A stretch of 64,000 bases of DNA, taken from a virus. Its lineage: Duplodnaviria; Heunggongvirae; Uroviricota; Caudoviricetes. How positions within the stretch are numbered: the first letter of the stretch is position 1; the number at the start of each line of letters is the position of its first letter. The notes under the pieces were generated by a model. It had not been told where the DNA came from and did no database searches. It saw nothing but the letters and a program-made list of their open reading frames with translations. The stretch lies in the IMG/VR virus record IMGVR_UViG_2541047959_000009. The stretch is one strand, 5' to 3'. The translations under genes were made by a program, and so were the position numbers. Positions 1-25,759 of this stretch are shown here, in pieces.

Positions 1-422
1 ACAAACTCACTGGTTTTCAGGGTGATATTGTCGGCAGCCTCAATAACCATGGATTTGATGCCCCTGACATACCAGCGCCCGGTGGCGGGTTCGTATTCAA
101 ACCAGCCACCGTCAGGATGTTCTGTCACGCAGGCGTCCGCCGACGTCGACGGTGGTGCGAACTGATTCGAATAGACAGCGGGCAGCGCAAAGGCGGTCTC
201 CAGATTGCCGCCCAGACTCAGCAGCACCACCTGCTCACCTTCCGATGGTCGCCACCATGTCCGGGCATTCCCGGCACGCAGGGTCAGCCAGCTGATCCAG
301 TTGGTTTCTAAGTCGCCTGTTTTCACCCGACAAAGCCAGTTTTCCCGGTCCACTTCGGTGACTACCCCAGTGCGGATCAGGTTGGTGATAAGGCGCATGA
401 TTTCGGTTAGTTGTGTGTTCAT
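1..422 (-). CDS. V: P2-like baseplate assembly protein V (N-terminal part; gene runs off window start)
   Basis: Minus-strand ORF starting ATG at 420-422; translation MNTQLTEIMRLITNLIRTGVV...WWRPSEGEQV resembles P2 gpV; synteny downstream of S and R. Confidence 0.8.
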   Translation of the reverse strand, partial: MNTQLTEIMRLITNLIRTGVVTEVDRENWLCRVKTGDLETNWISWLTLRAGNARTWWRPSEGEQVVLLSLGGNLETAFALPAVYSNQFAPPSTSADACVTEHPDGGWFEYEPATGRWYVRGIKSMVIEAADNITLKTSEF

Positions 423-560
423 GAAAATAGACTGCTATATCTCAAAATTGAGAAGTAGCTTTGATAGTTGTATCACGGCTGTCACAAACAACTGGCAAAA
501 AACGACTACTATCTATAAATTATTGAGAGTTATCTCATTAACAAAAAAGAAGCTTGGTAA

Positions 561-2261
561 ATGGAACACTTAAGACAACTGCAAAATAAAACTTCCCTGT
601 TAGAAAAGTACGGGACTAGTAACGCACATCTTTTATGGTCATTAGGTCTTTACTTAGATGAATCCGATTTTGATAAGCTAGCATCTGATGGACTTACTGA
701 TGGTGGAAACGATAAGAAAATAGACTTCATTACCGTAATTAATTCAACGTTATTTATTGCTCAGGGTTACTACTGCAATCAGCAAGCACTTAAAATAGTT
801 GCGCCTGCAAATAAAGCTTCTGACTTAAACACTGCTTTAGCGTGGATTATGGCAGGCTCAGGAGAGTCTCCAAATGCAAAATTAAGAGCAAAAATTTCTG
901 AGGTTAGAAAATTAATTGATGATAACGAAATTGAAGCTGTTGAATTATTATATATCCATAATTGTGCCGAATCTGAGCAGGTTAAAACTGAGCTTGAAAC
1001 TTGTCGTGACTATCTAGCAGGTAGATTTGCAGACAAAGAAATTGAGGTAACTTACAGAGAACTTGGTGTTAATAGTCTTGAAAAATTGTATATTGCGCTA
1101 TCACAACAAATTGTTGTGACTGACAATATAAAGTTCAATGGCGAACTTATAAATTCTGTACAAGGTGATGGCTGGACTTCACATGTTGGCTTTGCAAACG
1201 GCACTTGGCTAAATTATTTATACAAAAATTATGGAGCAGAATTATTTTCTGCTAATTATAGGGGGTTCATGGGATTAAATAAGAGAAGAAAAATAAACTC
1301 ATCAATTAAGAATACCGCAGAAACATCCCCAAAAGACTTCTTTGTCTTTAACAATGGTGTATCAATCCTAACAACAAAATTCAACAAAGAAAAAGGGTTG
1401 TTGGAAGGAGTTTCAATCATAAATGGAGCTCAAACCACTGGTTCTATTGGTTCAGTTCAAGATATACAAAAATTAGATGGCCTAAAAGTCCTTTGTAAGG
1501 TTATTGAATGTAATGATGCGGACAAAGTAAAAAAAATAGTCCAGTATAATAATACTCAGAATCATATTACAACCTGGGATCACTACTCTAACAGCACAGA
1601 ACAAAAACAGGTGGCAGAAGAATTTTCCACTCTTGGTTATACATATTCACTGAAACGCGGCTTCGAAAATACTGGTTCTTTATTTGGCATTGAGTCTGTT
1701 GCTCAACCGCTGATAGCGTTACATGGGGATTATGTTAGCGCCAATAGAGGTAAAAACTACGTTTTCGATACAAAATCAGCCTATGACAATGCCTTTCATG
1801 ATTCGAAAGCCCAGCATATTTTATGTGCTTACACTATTTCAAAAGCTATAGAAAAAGTAAAATCTCAAATCCGTGCAAAAGAGAATAAAATTAAAGTAGA
1901 TGAGGATAACTTATTATTCCTCCAAAATTTAAAGTCTCGATTCTTTTTAATATCCGTCATCGGAGAAATACTTGAAGAATTAACAGATAAACCTTTGAAC
2001 AAGAAGAAAATAAAATATAAATATGATACAGCATTATCTAAAAATAACTCTCTGGATGATTTAATCGACCTTTGGACACCAGTTATAACTGCGATATTAC
2101 CACATGTTATCCGTGTTTCAGGTCAAGATTTAACCACCTACTTATCTGTAACAGACAACCCGTTATCTATCGTATCAAAGGAAGTTAAAAACATATTAAC
2201 ATCCTTAAAAGCGTTCCAACCGATTGAGCCATTAATTACTCTTTCAAATCACCTTGAATAA
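561..2261 (+). CDS. AIPR-family abortive infection protein (putative), AT-rich cargo in S-V gap
   Basis: 566-aa ORF opposite to flanking late genes; motif FNNGVSIL...NGAQTT typical of AIPR (PF10592) as I recall; AT-rich versus GC-rich phage flanks. Confidence 0.55.
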   Translation: MEHLRQLQNKTSLLEKYGTSNAHLLWSLGLYLDESDFDKLASDGLTDGGNDKKIDFITVINSTLFIAQGYYCNQQALKIVAPANKASDLNTALAWIMAGSGESPNAKLRAKISEVRKLIDDNEIEAVELLYIHNCAESEQVKTELETCRDYLAGRFADKEIEVTYRELGVNSLEKLYIALSQQIVVTDNIKFNGELINSVQGDGWTSHVGFANGTWLNYLYKNYGAELFSANYRGFMGLNKRRKINSSIKNTAETSPKDFFVFNNGVSILTTKFNKEKGLLEGVSIINGAQTTGSIGSVQDIQKLDGLKVLCKVIECNDADKVKKIVQYNNTQNHITTWDHYSNSTEQKQVAEEFSTLGYTYSLKRGFENTGSLFGIESVAQPLIALHGDYVSANRGKNYVFDTKSAYDNAFHDSKAQHILCAYTISKAIEKVKSQIRAKENKIKVDEDNLLFLQNLKSRFFLISVIGEILEELTDKPLNKKKIKYKYDTALSKNNSLDDLIDLWTPVITAILPHVIRVSGQDLTTYLSVTDNPLSIVSKEVKNILTSLKAFQPIEPLITLSNHLE

Positions 2262-2264
2262 ATA

Positions 2265-2293
2265 ACGGGTGGCCTCCTAGGCCACCCGTTCAT
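2265..2293. terminator. Hairpin between convergent AIPR-like gene and gene S
   Basis: Inverted repeat acgggtggcc/ggccacccgt with 5-nt loop directly after the stop codon. Confidence 0.45.
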
Positions 2294-2316: not shown

Positions 2317-2775
2317 TTACGGCTTATTGTTATTAATTAACCATTGATAAAAAACATTCTTAACGTTGTTCTCAATATCATTGTTAATACCCAACAAACG
2401 CCGCTCTGCATACCGTACGTCCGGTCCTTTGCGACTGACGCGATCACGCAGACCGTAATGGTGAACACGGGCAATGCGCTGTACCTTACCTTCAAACTGC
2501 ACGCTGGCAGAGTCGGCGCTGGCGGCAGTTTTCAGGTATTTTGTGGTGCGCAGCTTTGCAAACATCTGACGTTTGATACGGCCTTTTTTACTGCGTGCTG
2601 TTACCCGTCGCGGTTCATAGCTGCTGCCGTCAGGGTTGCGCTGCATCCTGATATTCTGCTGCTGTGTCCGGCGAAGTTCCTGCGCCAGCTGGCGCATCAT
2701 GCGGCTTCTCGAGGCTGGTTCCAGATTCGCCAGCAAGGCACTCAGCCAGTCGTCCACCTTCTGCAGTTCAGCCAC
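2317..2775 (-). CDS. S: P2-like tail completion / virion morphogenesis protein S
   Basis: 152-aa ORF, MAELQKVDDWLSALL..., position between R and V as in P2. Confidence 0.8.
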   Translation of the reverse strand: MAELQKVDDWLSALLANLEPASRSRMMRQLAQELRRTQQQNIRMQRNPDGSSYEPRRVTARSKKGRIKRQMFAKLRTTKYLKTAASADSASVQFEGKVQRIARVHHYGLRDRVSRKGPDVRYAERRLLGINNDIENNVKNVFYQWLINNNKP

Positions 2776-20590: not shown

Positions 20591-21814
20591 ATGCGCAACA
20601 TTATCGAATTAGAACAGATATCGGAAGAACTAAAAAAACATGAACTATTGCAACCCCCATTCATTGCCGAGGGAAAACTAATTTCTGACTTTTCTAAGAG
20701 AGTCGAGTGCTATTTAGAATTAATTGACTCCATTAGAAATAAATATCCTGACAACGAGATAATTAAACAAGTAAAGATTCGCACAAAATCAATAATATAT
20801 TTATCTGATAAAATAATAGAAACTCTTAAGCTATTTTTAATAGGAAATGTTAAAGAAGCTTATAAAAAATTCGATTTGGCAATTACCAAGTCATCAATGC
20901 ATACTCATCTTTATAAGATGACTGTTCCTCTAACTAAATTATGCAACCCACACACCCCTTTATTTCGCGTAAGGAAAAGTGAGTGCATCCTAAAACAAAG
21001 AGAAGAATTATTTCATATACCATTTAAAAATAGACATTTAGTTAGCGCACAAAGATTTTCTGTATCCGGTCTTCCATGTTTATATCTTGGAACATCAATA
21101 TTTGTATGTTGGCAAGAAATGGGAAAACCTGACTTTGATAAACTTTACATATCTTCCTTCATATCCGATAAAGAAAATTCAAATATAAGAATTTTAGATC
21201 TTGGGTACAATTTAACATCTGCACTTCGTACAAAACCGGGAGATCTTTGGTATTCATTCGAACAAGGTTCAGATGATGATTACGATCTAAATAATGATAA
21301 TTTCATGGATCAAATTAATGATAAAATTTCAAAGTTGATTGCATGGCCTTTAGTCCTTGCATGTAACTATACAAAAGATAATGAAAACGCAAGTTTTAAT
21401 AAAGAATACATAATACCAAACCTATTAATGCAATGGATTAGTAGTGACAGAAACAAAAATATATCAGGGATATCGTATCGATCAACAAAGATATTAAACC
21501 AAAAAGATAGCGATATTGGGATTAATGTAATTATCCCCCCAAAAATAGAAAACATAGTTGAAACCAATGATACCCACTGTCCTGTTTTAAAAAAAATATT
21601 TAGAGTTACAAACCCTGTTTCCTGGACTGTGTTTAGTACACTAGAAGCCACCCCCTATCTATACAAAAATAATTTTAATTTTTCGACCTATAATCCCGCA
21701 AAAGGATGGATTGAAGACTTTGATGAATCCCTTGTTGAACATTATGAAAATACCACTTTTAGAAAAGTTGAACTCCTTATTCATCAAATGATGAAGTATG
21801 AATATTTAAAATAA
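20591..21814 (+). CDS. RES-domain-like protein (putative NAD-targeting toxin fold), AT-rich cargo after int
   Basis: 407-aa ORF 4 bp after int stop; segment SAQRFSVSGLPCLYLGTSIFVCWQEMG matches the RES Arg/Ser/Glu signature as I recall. Confidence 0.5.
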   Translation: MRNIIELEQISEELKKHELLQPPFIAEGKLISDFSKRVECYLELIDSIRNKYPDNEIIKQVKIRTKSIIYLSDKIIETLKLFLIGNVKEAYKKFDLAITKSSMHTHLYKMTVPLTKLCNPHTPLFRVRKSECILKQREELFHIPFKNRHLVSAQRFSVSGLPCLYLGTSIFVCWQEMGKPDFDKLYISSFISDKENSNIRILDLGYNLTSALRTKPGDLWYSFEQGSDDDYDLNNDNFMDQINDKISKLIAWPLVLACNYTKDNENASFNKEYIIPNLLMQWISSDRNKNISGISYRSTKILNQKDSDIGINVIIPPKIENIVETNDTHCPVLKKIFRVTNPVSWTVFSTLEATPYLYKNNFNFSTYNPAKGWIEDFDESLVEHYENTTFRKVELLIHQMMKYEYLK

Positions 21815-22360: not shown

Positions 22361-22558
22361 ATGGCACTGGACAGTTATGCATCTCCGAATATTATTCCGG
22401 AGCTAAGACAACCGAATGCCGCAGCAGGTAAGATCACGCTAGGGGGGCTGGACAGAATGGCTGTTACGCCCAGTGTGAAGAAAAGAAGGCTAAGTATGGT
22501 AGAATTTCCATACGCACAGACCTTGTTATCCGACTATACAGCCTGGAAGGCACTATGA
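22361..22558 (+). CDS. Small ORF upstream of and overlapping the nuclease-like gene (uncertain)
   Basis: 65-aa ORF with ATGA stop-start overlap with the next gene. Confidence 0.3.
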   Translation: MALDSYASPNIIPELRQPNAAAGKITLGGLDRMAVTPSVKKRRLSMVEFPYAQTLLSDYTAWKAL

Positions 22559-23343
22559 CAAATCTACAACTGGAAGAAAGATTTAGGGCGCTTGAGAAAG
22601 ATTACGATGCGCTCATTTCCACAAAATATACTGCGCAGAACGTTCTCACTCACACTATGGAAACCTATGTTGATTCTGGTAAATATAAAAACTGGATCGC
22701 CAGAGTGAAAAAGTTAATAGAGGACAGCTACGGAAAAGAGTCTGATTATTACAATGACTTCAATACTGTAAACAGCAGGTGGTCTTCTAATTACAATACA
22801 CTGATCAAAAGTTATAAACCGTTGTTTGATGCGGCGAGAGATGATCTTGCGCACTCTGCTGTCAGTACTAATACTCCTCAAGAAGGTTCGCCGCTGAGCC
22901 TCGTACTTAATATTCTTAACAGGTTTCCGACCTTTGTTCGCCAGTTAAAGAGGCGGTACAACGGCCGTGCGCCGCTTGAAGTTAATGATGAGTATGACGT
23001 ACAGGATTTGATTTATGCACTGCTGACGCTTCATTTTAATGATATTAGGGCGGAAGAGTATACCCCCAGCTTTGCGGGCGCGGCCTCAAGACAGGACTTT
23101 CTTTTGAAAAAAGAGAAAATTGTGATAGAGGTGAAGAAAACCCGTGAATCTCTGGGAGCGGGTAAAGTTGGTGGAGAGTTGCTTATTGATATGGCGCGCT
23201 ACCGCGCTCACCAAGACTGCGATACGTTGATCTTGTTTGTATATGACCCGGATTGCTACATAAATAATCCTTTGGGCGTGAAAACCGATCTGGAATCTAA
23301 AGACGCGGAAGGAAAAGTGAAGGTTGTTATTGCGCAGTTCTGA
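22555..23343 (+). CDS. PD-(D/E)xK nuclease-like protein (putative restriction-endonuclease fold)
   Basis: 262-aa ORF; C-terminal EYDVQD...RQDFLLKKEKIVIEVKK fits D...D/E-x-K; helical N-terminal domain. Confidence 0.55.
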   Translation: MTNLQLEERFRALEKDYDALISTKYTAQNVLTHTMETYVDSGKYKNWIARVKKLIEDSYGKESDYYNDFNTVNSRWSSNYNTLIKSYKPLFDAARDDLAHSAVSTNTPQEGSPLSLVLNILNRFPTFVRQLKRRYNGRAPLEVNDEYDVQDLIYALLTLHFNDIRAEEYTPSFAGAASRQDFLLKKEKIVIEVKKTRESLGAGKVGGELLIDMARYRAHQDCDTLILFVYDPDCYINNPLGVKTDLESKDAEGKVKVVIAQF

Positions 23344-23378
23344 CACGCTTAAGTGTCACCTTACAGGATTAGGTTTGC

Positions 23379-23423
23379 GGCCGTGCCAGCAGGACGAGCA
23401 TGAAAAAGGCCGCTGGCACGGCC
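23379..23423. terminator. Hairpin between convergent genes
   Basis: ggccgtgccagc ... gctggcacggcc 12-bp stem. Confidence 0.4.
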
Positions 23424-23430
23424 GGATTTG

Positions 23431-23724
23431 TCATCTTTGCCAGGTCAAATCAAAATCTACGTGAAAATCCGCAGGCTTAAGCTCGCAACTGCCACCACGC
23501 CCAATTAACGACGTTATGTTTACAACGTTTGAACCTGTTGAGATGGCAAGTTGAGTGTCATCTGTAAACGTGATGATTAGCATTTCAGTCTGATGAACCT
23601 GTACTCCAGTTTTCTGAAAACCAATCTGGACAGATTTCACCGTTTTCCCAACCATTTCACGGGCTTGATTGATAGAGTAATTAGCTTCAACTTGTAGGTC
23701 ATTCCTGAACTTGGGTAGTGTCAT
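23431..23724 (-). CDS. Hypothetical 97-aa protein
   Basis: ORF with AAGAGGATG RBS. Confidence 0.45.
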   Translation of the reverse strand: MTLPKFRNDLQVEANYSINQAREMVGKTVKSVQIGFQKTGVQVHQTEMLIITFTDDTQLAISTGSNVVNITSLIGRGGSCELKPADFHVDFDLTWQR

Positions 23725-23934
23725 TTTACATCCTCTTTAGTGAAGTTTTCGCTATTTAAATCAGCAGCATTCCTTTTAAATCACTGGCATGTCAGCAGTG
23801 GATAGTCTGAGTGTAACGTCCAGTGAGGGGAATAAATATTGGTCAGACTTTGCACAAAAGAGCCAACTATCGCGGGCTCTCTCTCATCATGTGCGAAAAT
23901 TGACCACAATATGAAATCCAGTTCCATTCCGAAA

Positions 23935-24759
<825 letters not shown>

Positions 24760-24865
24760 TCAATTGACAACTTATAATCCCTACTAGTTAGCATTATGAT
24801 TTCCAGAGTGAGGAATATAAAAATCTCTGTTTCTGGCACATAACAGCCCTTAAGATCGTAGCTCG

Positions 24866-24915
24866 CCATCATGGGGTGTCGGGGGGCGGAGGTTCAAATC
24901 CTCTCGTGCCGACCA
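24866..24915 (+). other. 3-prime fragment of a tRNA-Pro(UGG)-like gene (att-like remnant), not an intact tRNA
   Basis: catggggtgtcggggggcggaggttcaaatcctctcgtgccgacca matches remembered proM 3-prime half; no complementary 5-prime acceptor strand upstream. Confidence 0.55.
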
Positions 24916-24928
24916 AAAATCCCTTAAG

Positions 24929-24955
24929 AACCAGCCTATTATGGCTGGTTTTTTT
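24929..24955 (+). terminator. Rho-independent terminator after the tRNA-Pro fragment
   Basis: aaccagcc tattat ggctggtt then ttttt. Confidence 0.6.
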
Positions 24956-25156
24956 ATGATTGTTTTTTATGCGGAGAAATACCGGGGAATAATTGGGGTA
25001 AAACACCTTTAGGCTATTCACTTAGCCTACCACCATCAAAATCTTTCCGAATGTATCCATCTCTTTTTTCTTATGCAGCTAAAACGAAGTCTTGATACTG
25101 TTTATTTACACAGATAAGAATAATACTGTCTACAAACGCAGTACAAAAGAAGTGTT

Positions 25157-25335
25157 ATGCGTATTGAGATCTCCATAGCCAAAGACAAAATGACCAAATG
25201 CCAAACGGCGCTGTGGACGCGTTAAAGGAAGAATTAACCCAACACATTGGCAAGCGTTATGACGATGTGGAGATGATCGTAAAAGCCACCAGCAACGATA
25301 GTTTTTCAGTTAGACATACTGCAGATAAAGATTGA
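25157..25335 (+). pseudogene. dinI-like gene disrupted by a frameshift
   Basis: [11 protein letters not shown]... stops after 22 codons; the DinI-like remainder ...[37 protein letters not shown] is in another frame. Confidence 0.45.
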
Positions 25336-25759
25336 GCTAAAACTTTCGTTCAGGAAACTCTGAATGATACCTGAGAGTCTACTGAAGAGTTGTTTGTTCA
25401 CTAGTTAGCACGTAGGAAATCATTCAATACTCGCACTATCGGAAGTTCACCAGCCAGTCGTAGCACGTCCTTGCAAACGACGTGCCTACGGTTTCAATCA
25501 CCTCTCACCATCAATTCTATCAATAATAATTAAACAGCGCCTAGACAAAATAAATAACAACAAGTCAACAACCTCGACAGGATGCCGATGGGATGATGAA
25601 GAGATAAGAAAGAATAACCAGTAAAGCCCTAAAACGTCAGCGTTCAGACGCGTTTTTTACTTAATCGGTAACAAATACGTTGTATCATAGCAAAATAAAA
25701 TGATTGTTCTAAATCAGATTAACTCCTCACTTTTGTACAATGTCGCTTACAGGTATACC

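What the first reader, a model, noticed from the sequence alone, without database searches (positions are those of the whole stretch)
561..2261. AIPR-like abortive-infection gene in the S-V gap (P2 orf30 slot)
The late-operon genes S and V are normally nearly adjacent (P2 has only small orf30 there, as I recall). Here a 1.7-kb AT-rich gene in the opposite orientation, followed by a hairpin, carries the FNNG...NGAQTT signature I associate with AIPR abortive-infection proteins. It suggests a third cargo locus inside the tail operon.
Basis: partly seen in the sequence, partly recalled or inferred. Interest (0 to 1): 0.55.

Follow-up and report, generated by a model that had tools for sequence, protein, structure and literature searches.

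The report
AIPR defence gene in P2-like prophage

Summary
Window 561-2261 (+) is an intact 566-aa ORF at 33-37% GC between genes V and S (55-60% GC), which lie on the other strand. A 12-bp hairpin follows it.

It matches Pfam AIPR (E 1.6e-25), PADLOC AbiU (1.7e-24) and PHROG 1841 over its full length (4e-146). RefSeq already names it "AIPR family protein" (E. coli S88).

The layout equals the P2 orf30 slot: S, terminator, antisense cargo, PV activator box, V. The slot is therefore a gap between the O and V operons, not the inside of one operon.

Most related E. coli prophages have an empty slot. About a third of a sample carry other cargo there, including PARIS, SIR2, GmrSD-like, FRG and ATPase genes. 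This AIPR gene is in only 9 of 5,426 genomes, as two alleles under strong purifying selection.

Structure prediction suggests an N-terminal PD-(D/E)xK nuclease, a central ParB/Srx-like domain and a helical C-terminus. There is no conserved partner gene.

The best reading is a single-gene, nuclease-based anti-phage cargo gene; its activity is untested. The family, the variable slot and AbiU in P2-like prophages are all in the literature. Novelty is low.

The parts
1..422 (-). 5' part of baseplate assembly gene V (start codon is the complement of 420-422); first gene of the late V operon
   Evidence: RefSeq annotation of the identical S88 sequence. High identity with other prophages ends at the ATG.
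423..486 (-). PV late-promoter region, with the activator (Ogr/Delta-type) box TGT-N12-ACA at 469-486
   Evidence: The box sits at the same position, 46 nt from the V ATG, in all 7 E. coli cassettes compared, while the surrounding sequence differs. P2 annotates an activator site and a V-operon start site at the V start codon in the same place. Function here is inferred.
492..521 (+). Weak candidate sigma-70 promoter for the AIPR gene (-35 CTGGCA at 492-497, 18-nt spacer, -10 TAAATT at 516-521)
   Evidence: Only 8 of 12 consensus matches, but a candidate of equal strength lies at the same relative position upstream of the second AIPR allele. The standard scan found none at 9 of 12. Tentative.
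561..2261 (+). AIPR/AbiU-family gene, 566 aa. Predicted domains: aa ~40-190 PD-(D/E)xK-like nuclease, aa ~212-425 ParB/Srx-like (Pfam AIPR core), aa ~425-566 helical
2264..2290 (.). G+C-rich hairpin between the convergent AIPR and S genes; probable bidirectional terminator. It corresponds to the O-operon terminator annotated in P2
   Evidence: P2 annotation. Prophages with an empty slot have no such hairpin; there the S stop codon is 2 nt from the activator box.
2317..2395 (-). AT-rich 3' end of S (about the last 22 codons), which belongs to the swapped cassette rather than to the conserved S gene
   Evidence: S is 88-90% identical overall between prophages, and nearly all the differences fall in the last ~22 residues. 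S length varies from 147 to 154 aa with the cargo.
2396..2775 (-). Conserved part of tail-completion gene S, last gene of the late O operon
   Evidence: Pfam Phage_tail_S E 7.6e-41; alignment.

Best explanation
This is a horizontally acquired cargo gene ('moron') of a P2/186-like prophage that most likely acts as a single-gene anti-phage defence protein. It lies antisense to the late genes in the gap between the O operon and the PV promoter. It probably has its own weak promoter, and a hairpin shields it from late transcription, so it can be expressed in the lysogen (inferred). The protein joins three parts: an N-terminal restriction-endonuclease-fold domain as effector, a ParB/Srx-like domain of the kind that binds nucleotides or DNA in ParB, DndB and GmrSD as sensor or switch, and a helical C-terminal domain. 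The proposed mechanism is that the ParB/Srx-like and helical core recognises a feature of incoming phage DNA or of infection, then licenses the nuclease to cut nucleic acid, which blocks phage gene expression. Shown: family membership, intactness, purifying selection, cargo status, slot architecture and fold similarities. Inferred: expression, nuclease activity, the trigger, and whether the cell survives.
For: Family: PF10592 at 90.9 bits; PADLOC AbiU E 1.7e-24 over aa 115-511; PHROG 1841 'Abi alpha-like', category moron, E 4.3e-146 over its full length.

Literature agrees. AbiUi resembles FokI and delays phage transcription (PMC13064643). AbiU-1 is placed in the PD-(D/E)xK superfamily (PMC13099982). 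[quoted passage not shown]

Stand-alone unit: among 80 loci from different species, no neighbouring gene family recurs in more than 4.

Selection: between the two E. coli alleles pN is 0.10 while pS is 0.77 (saturated); no stop codons in 5 homologues.

Defence context: the same slot in sister prophages holds PARIS (AriA/AriB), a SIR2 protein, a GmrSD_N protein, an FRG/PDC-S15 protein and an ApeA-like protein. Relatives sit in other P2-like hotspots: beside the portal gene (63% identity), between gpA and Q in Klebsiella phages (31%), and in the same S-V slot in Salmonella (85%). AbiU is reported in both P2-like prophages and P4 satellites (PMC13586616).
Against: No experiment exists for this protein or its subfamily. 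Rousset et al. cloned a P4-borne AIPR gene (pFR77), and it is not among the seven systems that protected against their 8 phages. That protein shares only 30% identity over 158 aa with this one.

Lactococcal AbiU gave only 10- to 100-fold protection (PMC13064643).

The canonical nuclease lysine is missing. The motif reads D55...Q68-G-Y70 where the P4-type AIPR has D...Q-S-K, so nuclease activity is not assured.

Confidence: 0.62

Rival explanations
1. Classical abortive infection in the AbiU sense. On infection the protein attacks host and phage nucleic acids or transcription without discrimination, so the infected cell dies or stalls and the clone is protected, rather than the infected cell being rescued.
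For: The family name and the only studied member: AbiUi delays phage transcription in Lactococcus (PMC13064643). PADLOC AbiU hit. No methylase or immunity partner next to the gene in 80 loci, so self/non-self discrimination by modification is not evident.
Against: The AbiU HMM does not cover the N-terminal 114 residues, which hold the nuclease motif. Cell death was never tested for this subfamily. The ParB/Srx-plus-nuclease architecture parallels GmrSD/BrxU, which restrict directly (analogy only).
Confidence: 0.25
2. A catalytically inactive, DndB-like DNA-binding or regulatory protein with a role other than defence, such as prophage maintenance, regulation or competition with P4-type satellites.
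For: The canonical Lys of the (E/Q)xK motif is replaced by Tyr in 40 of 41 homologues (Phe in the other). The central domain is ParB/Srx-like, and DndB is a regulator (PMC3506569). A P4-borne AIPR showed no defence in one panel.
Against: D47, D51, D55, Q68, H133, N134, E137 and E144 are invariant. K85 is invariant exactly in the clades that lack the QxK lysine, and is Gly in the clade that has it, which fits migration of the lysine rather than its loss. The slot's other cargo is overwhelmingly of defence type.
Confidence: 0.1
3. A structural or otherwise essential phage gene of the tail module.
For: Position between tail-completion and baseplate genes only.
Against: It is absent from about 1,040 of about 1,050 E. 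coli genomes that carry the same S and V genes, and in 32 of the 60 sampled rows S and V are adjacent. It lies on the opposite strand, has about 34% GC, and has homologues in non-phage chromosomal sites across Bacteria and Archaea.
Confidence: 0.01

Closest known systems
AbiU (AbiUi/AbiU1) of Lactococcus lactis, and the DefenseFinder/PADLOC 'AbiU' type
   Same: HMM match E 1.7e-24 over aa 115-511. Single protein of about 570-590 aa. Predicted FokI-like nuclease (PMC13064643). AbiU-type genes are already recorded in P2-like prophages and P4 satellites (PMC13586616).
   Different: The match leaves out the N-terminal 114 residues. This is a different clade from a Gram-negative prophage. No phenotype is known here, and there is no AbiUii/HEPN partner.
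Pfam PF10592 AIPR / PHROG 1841 ('Abi alpha-like abortive infection mechanism')
   Same: Clear member: 90.9 bits against a cut-off of 25, and a full-length PHROG hit at E 4.3e-146. RefSeq product name 'AIPR family protein'.
   Different: None at family level. Within the family this clade has Q-G-Y instead of Q-x-K, plus an invariant K85.
MzaE of the MZA system
   Same: Shares the AIPR core: NCBIfam NF041935 E 1.3e-13 and PADLOC MzaE 5e-9, both over aa ~213-349 only.
GmrSD / BrxU / SspE (DUF262 ParB-like NTPase plus nuclease; type IV restriction)
   Same: Same logic of a ParB/Srx-like domain joined to a nuclease in one polypeptide. BrxU appears among the fold matches of the central domain. A GmrSD_N protein occupies the same S-V slot in another prophage.
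   Different: Different nuclease fold (PD-(D/E)xK, not HNH/DUF1524) and reversed domain order. No detectable sequence homology. The motif is NGAQTT, not DGQQR.
P2 orf30 locus (the third variable region of P2-like phages, beside the tin-old and Z/fun regions)
   Same: Identical position and architecture: S, terminator, antisense AT-rich ORF, PV activator site, V. The literature already treats it as a site of horizontally acquired genes (PMC3091744, PMC6823313).
   Different: P2 Orf30 (261 aa) is unrelated to AIPR and matches no Pfam or PADLOC model.

Membership tests
AIPR (Pfam PF10592) | Score above the curated gathering threshold of the family HMM | tested here: met
   90.9 bits against 25, E 1.6e-25, aa 229-498 on profile positions 1-289 of 308.
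AIPR (Pfam PF10592) | Conserved core motifs (NYRGF, NNG, NGAQTT, NNTQN) | tested here: met
   All are present and invariant across 41 homologues. NNG and NGAQT are also shared with the P4-type and Klebsiella-phage AIPR proteins.
AbiU (PADLOC/DefenseFinder type; L. lactis AbiUi) | Match to the AbiU profile over most of its length | tested here: met
   E 1.7e-24, profile positions 138-513 of 537. No curated cut-off is available in this library.
AbiU (PADLOC/DefenseFinder type; L. lactis AbiUi) | Phage resistance with delayed phage transcription | not testable with these tools
   Needs a phage challenge and RNA time course. The only related E. coli test (P4 AIPR, pFR77) is not among the validated systems.
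Abortive infection (cell suicide or dormancy) | Infected cell dies or arrests; protection only at low multiplicity of infection | not testable with these tools
   No experimental data for this subfamily.
MZA system (MzaE) | Score above the NCBIfam equivalog cut-off, and presence of the partner genes MzaA-D | tested here: not met
   50.3 bits against 1050. Neighbours are phage genes V and S, and there are no conserved neighbours in 80 loci.
PD-(D/E)xK nuclease superfamily (N-terminal domain) | Restriction-endonuclease fold | tested here: met
PD-(D/E)xK nuclease superfamily (N-terminal domain) | Catalytic D...(D/E/Q)xK motif | tested here: inconclusive
   D55 and Q68 are invariant, but position 70 is Tyr, not Lys. 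An invariant K85 may substitute for it. The positions of these residues in the model could not be inspected.
ParB/Srx superfamily (central domain) | ParB/Srx fold | tested here: inconclusive
P2 orf30-slot cargo (variable region between S and V) | Located between the end of the O operon (S) and the PV activator site/V, and variable among otherwise similar phages | tested here: met

The most novel reading that the evidence does not exclude
AIPR proteins are not suicide factors. They are nucleotide-gated restriction-like enzymes: a ParB/Srx-type switch (NGAQTT motif) controls a PD-(D/E)xK nuclease whose catalytic lysine has moved from the QxK strand to the following helix (K85). In addition, the S-V gap of P2-like phages is a full defence hotspot in which the exchanged unit carries its own copy of the PV late promoter and the last ~22 codons of the essential gene S.
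Probability: 0.3. Interest if true: 0.5.

Novelty: already known. Interest (0 to 1): 0.25.

Why it matters
As a gene call it adds nothing. RefSeq, Pfam and PHROGs already name it, and recent censuses list AbiU-type genes in P2-like prophages.

Two points keep some value. First, no AIPR protein has a demonstrated biochemical mechanism, and this compact stand-alone member with a confident model would be a convenient one to study. Second, the S-V (orf30) slot is barely treated in the defence-hotspot papers I could read, yet it carries PARIS, SIR2, GmrSD-like and several unannotated genes in roughly a third of sampled E. coli P2-like prophages. It is therefore a cheap place to look for new defence genes.

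Tried and rejected
- **Foldseek against the PDB:** the full-length model gave nothing significant; the best hit had E 0.24.
- **Sequence searches of solved structures:** neither phmmer nor a profile of 41 homologues found anything.
- **Pfam scans of the separated halves:** the N-terminal half gave no nuclease family and the central part gave no ParB family.
- **hhalign against GmrSD:** the central-domain alignment against the GmrSD_N protein from the same slot gave probability 0.2%.
- **Conserved partner genes:** none found.
- **P2 Orf30:** not homologous to AIPR and has no Pfam or PADLOC hit.
- **Standard promoter scan:** no + strand promoter upstream of the gene; only a relaxed scan gave a candidate.
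- **IMG/VR survey with the S protein:** the kept set was the 80 best-scoring S matches (71 of 80 empty), so I did not use it for frequencies.
- **MzaE membership and a structural role:** both considered and rejected.

Full report
**1. What is there**

Window 561-2261 (+) is an intact 566-aa ORF with an ATG start. Its GC content is 0.29-0.37, against 0.55-0.60 on both sides.

The window is 100% identical to E. coli S88 (NC_011742.1), starting at record position 2,810,406. Strains MS7163 and N53 are identical over this region, and BEN5202 is nearly so. RefSeq already annotates the ORF as 'AIPR family protein' WP_000400690.1.

To the left is baseplate gene V on the - strand, with its start codon at 420-422.

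A 12-bp, G+C-rich hairpin lies at 2264-2290, between the convergent AIPR and S genes. It is far more stable than shuffled sequence on either strand.

**2. Family**

- Pfam PF10592 AIPR: 90.9 bits against a cut-off of 25.
- PADLOC AbiU: E 1.7e-24 over aa 115-511; MzaE matches only weakly.
- NCBIfam MzaE: 50 bits against a cut-off of 1050, so the protein is not MzaE.
- PHROG 1841 ('Abi alpha-like abortive infection mechanism', category moron): full-length match, E 4.3e-146.

More than 1,000 homologues were found. Many are full-length (~570 aa) at 43-45% identity and come from very different bacterial groups; a separate genome scan also found relatives in Archaea. An alignment of 41 of them has 74 invariant columns.

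**3. The locus is the P2 orf30 slot, and it lies between two operons**

In P2 (NC_001895) the order is S, 'putative rho-independent terminator for O operon', orf30 on the opposite strand (nonessential), 'activator binding site; activation of pV promoter', then V. The V-operon transcription start is annotated at the V start codon.

The window has the same order. The box TGT-N12-ACA lies at 469-486, 46 nt from the V ATG. That puts its centre about 55 nt from the ATG, as in P2.

In E. coli prophages with an empty slot, V and S are 68 bp apart. There the S stop codon is 2 nt from the box and there is no hairpin.

I compared seven E. coli cassettes: two AIPR alleles, the empty form, PARIS, SIR2, GmrSD-like and an Sll1717-type ATPase.
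- The box is always at the same position.
- The sequence between the V ATG and the box differs from cassette to cassette.
- The last ~22 codons of S also differ (S is 147-154 aa long).

**4. How common it is**

DNA related to this gene occurs in 9 of 5,426 complete E. coli genomes. Four carry this allele. Five carry a second allele in the same slot, with 76% DNA identity and 83% protein identity.

Between the two alleles, synonymous sites are saturated (pS 0.77) while pN is 0.10. This indicates old divergence under strong purifying selection. All five homologues tested are intact and have about 34% GC.

I took an evenly spaced sample of 60 of the 1,099 E. coli records that match the region.
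- 32 have an empty slot.
- About 20 hold other cargo.

The cargo I verified by annotation comprises:
- PARIS (AriA/AriB);
- a SIR2 protein (PDC-S25/ThsA-like);
- a GmrSD_N-SLFN protein (NsnA/PD-T4-2_A-like);
- an Sll1717-type P-loop ATPase;
- an FRG protein (PDC-S15);
- an ApeA-like protein next to a hypothetical one;
- a 384-aa hypothetical protein.

DUF6216 proteins are named among the features under several other matches, but I did not check their position.

IMG/VR contigs add an HNH-like protein, a P-loop protein and small membrane proteins, judged only from their N-terminal sequences. All lie antisense to S and V and have 31-36% GC.

**5. Where relatives of this AIPR live**

- Salmonella, 85% identity: the same S-V slot.
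- Pantoea, 80%: at the edge of P2-like prophages, near gpA or near ogr/D.
- A metagenomic P2-like phage, 63%: beside the portal gene.
- Klebsiella Peduoviridae phages, 31%: between gpA and the portal gene.
- Aeromonas, 58%: a chromosomal site with no phage genes nearby.

Across 80 loci from different species, no neighbouring gene family recurs in more than 4 loci. The gene is therefore a self-contained unit that moves between variable loci.

**6. Structure and likely mechanism**

The AlphaFold2 model built on 41 homologues has a mean pLDDT of 83.

I therefore assign the nuclease fold to roughly aa 40-190, a ParB/Srx-like fold to the Pfam AIPR core, and a helical domain to the C-terminus.

This agrees with published statements. 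AbiUi resembles FokI (PMC13064643). AbiU-1 is placed in the PD-(D/E)xK superfamily (PMC13099982). [quoted passage not shown]

No support exists at sequence level.

In the nuclease motif, D47, D51, D55 and Q68 are invariant, but the usual lysine is Tyr70. K85 in the next helix is invariant. The Klebsiella-phage clade shows the same pattern (Q-C-Y with PANK). The P4-type AIPR has Q-S-K with Gly at the K85 position. This fits a migrated catalytic lysine, but it rests on three clades and I could not check it in three dimensions.

My best mechanism: the ParB/Srx-like and helical core senses infection or foreign DNA, then licenses the nuclease. The outcome could be abortive infection or direct restriction. 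This is inference.

**7. Evidence against a defence role**

There is no experiment for this subfamily. Rousset et al. cloned a P4-borne AIPR (pFR77), and it is not among the seven systems that protected against their eight phages. That protein shares only 30% identity over 158 aa with this one. Lactococcal AbiU protects weakly, reducing plating efficiency 10- to 100-fold (PMC13064643). Promoter evidence is weak.

**8. Novelty**

- The orf30 region has long been listed with the tin-old and Z/fun regions as a place where P2-like phages carry horizontally acquired genes (PMC3091744, PMC6823313).
- The recent defence-hotspot papers concentrate on the gpA-Q locus (PMC9122126), on Z/fun (PMC9519451), and on a locus between a tail protein and CI (10.1101/2024.10.15.618418).
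- A 2026 census reports AbiU in both P2 and P4, and a hotspot 'downstream of GpL' within the tail genes that holds 16% of P2 systems. That hotspot may include this slot (PMC13586616).

The gene, its family, its cargo status and the variability of the slot are thus already known. What this analysis adds is a description of the cassette boundaries and the domain reading. These are modest additions and the finding is ordinary.

Noticed in passing
window 13444-15884 (- strand): The replication endonuclease gene (gpA) of this prophage is annotated as frameshifted in RefSeq. In the window the open frame covers only 13797-15884 (695 aa), so the prophage may be unable to replicate while its cargo genes remain intact.
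   Followed up: partly
window 11127-12536 (- strand): A second AT-rich cargo gene (469 aa, GC 0.32-0.37) lies between portal gene Q and gpA, which is the classical P2 hotspot. Rousset et al. cloned a gene from this locus of strain S88 as pFR103, 'Putative HEPN'. I did not check that it is this same ORF, nor whether it protected.
   Followed up: partly
window 20591-21814 (+ strand): A third AT-rich gene (407 aa, hypothetical, GC about 0.30-0.34) follows the integrase directly. It matches the 'integrase to att site' hotspot described in PMC13586616.
   Followed up: no
window 22555-25374: Beyond the prophage end lie a PD-(D/E)XK nuclease-domain gene, a LEM-3-like GIY-YIG gene and a DinI-like pseudogene. 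DinI-like genes are typical of the P2 gpA-Q hotspot, so this may be a remnant of an earlier element or a small defence island.
   Followed up: no
window 423-486, and L002, L003, L005-L008 at the same offset: The PV promoter region travels with each cargo cassette. TGT-N12-ACA is kept at a fixed distance from the V ATG, while the 46 nt in between and the inside of the box differ from cassette to cassette.
   Followed up: yes
window 2317-2395; S genes of L002, L003, L005-L008: The C-terminal ~22 residues of the essential tail-completion protein S differ with the cargo cassette, and S is 147-154 aa long. Recombination junctions therefore lie inside S, and this tail of S tolerates replacement.
   Followed up: partly
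L008 549-2060: The Sll1717-type P-loop ATPase cargo is the one exception to the antisense rule. It lies on the same strand as S and V, and a terminator-like hairpin sits right next to the activator box.
   Followed up: no
window 15881-16738 (- strand): The prophage encodes a DNA adenine methylase next to gpA. Whether this modification relates to the prophage's own nuclease-type cargo was not examined.
   Followed up: no
L098 3409-3891 (S88 record 2798408-2798890, left of the window): A BRCT-domain gene sits between ssrA (the attachment site) and ogr, at the other end of the same prophage. It is another likely cargo position. The Z/fun slot between the tail fibre assembly and sheath genes is empty in this prophage.
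   Followed up: no
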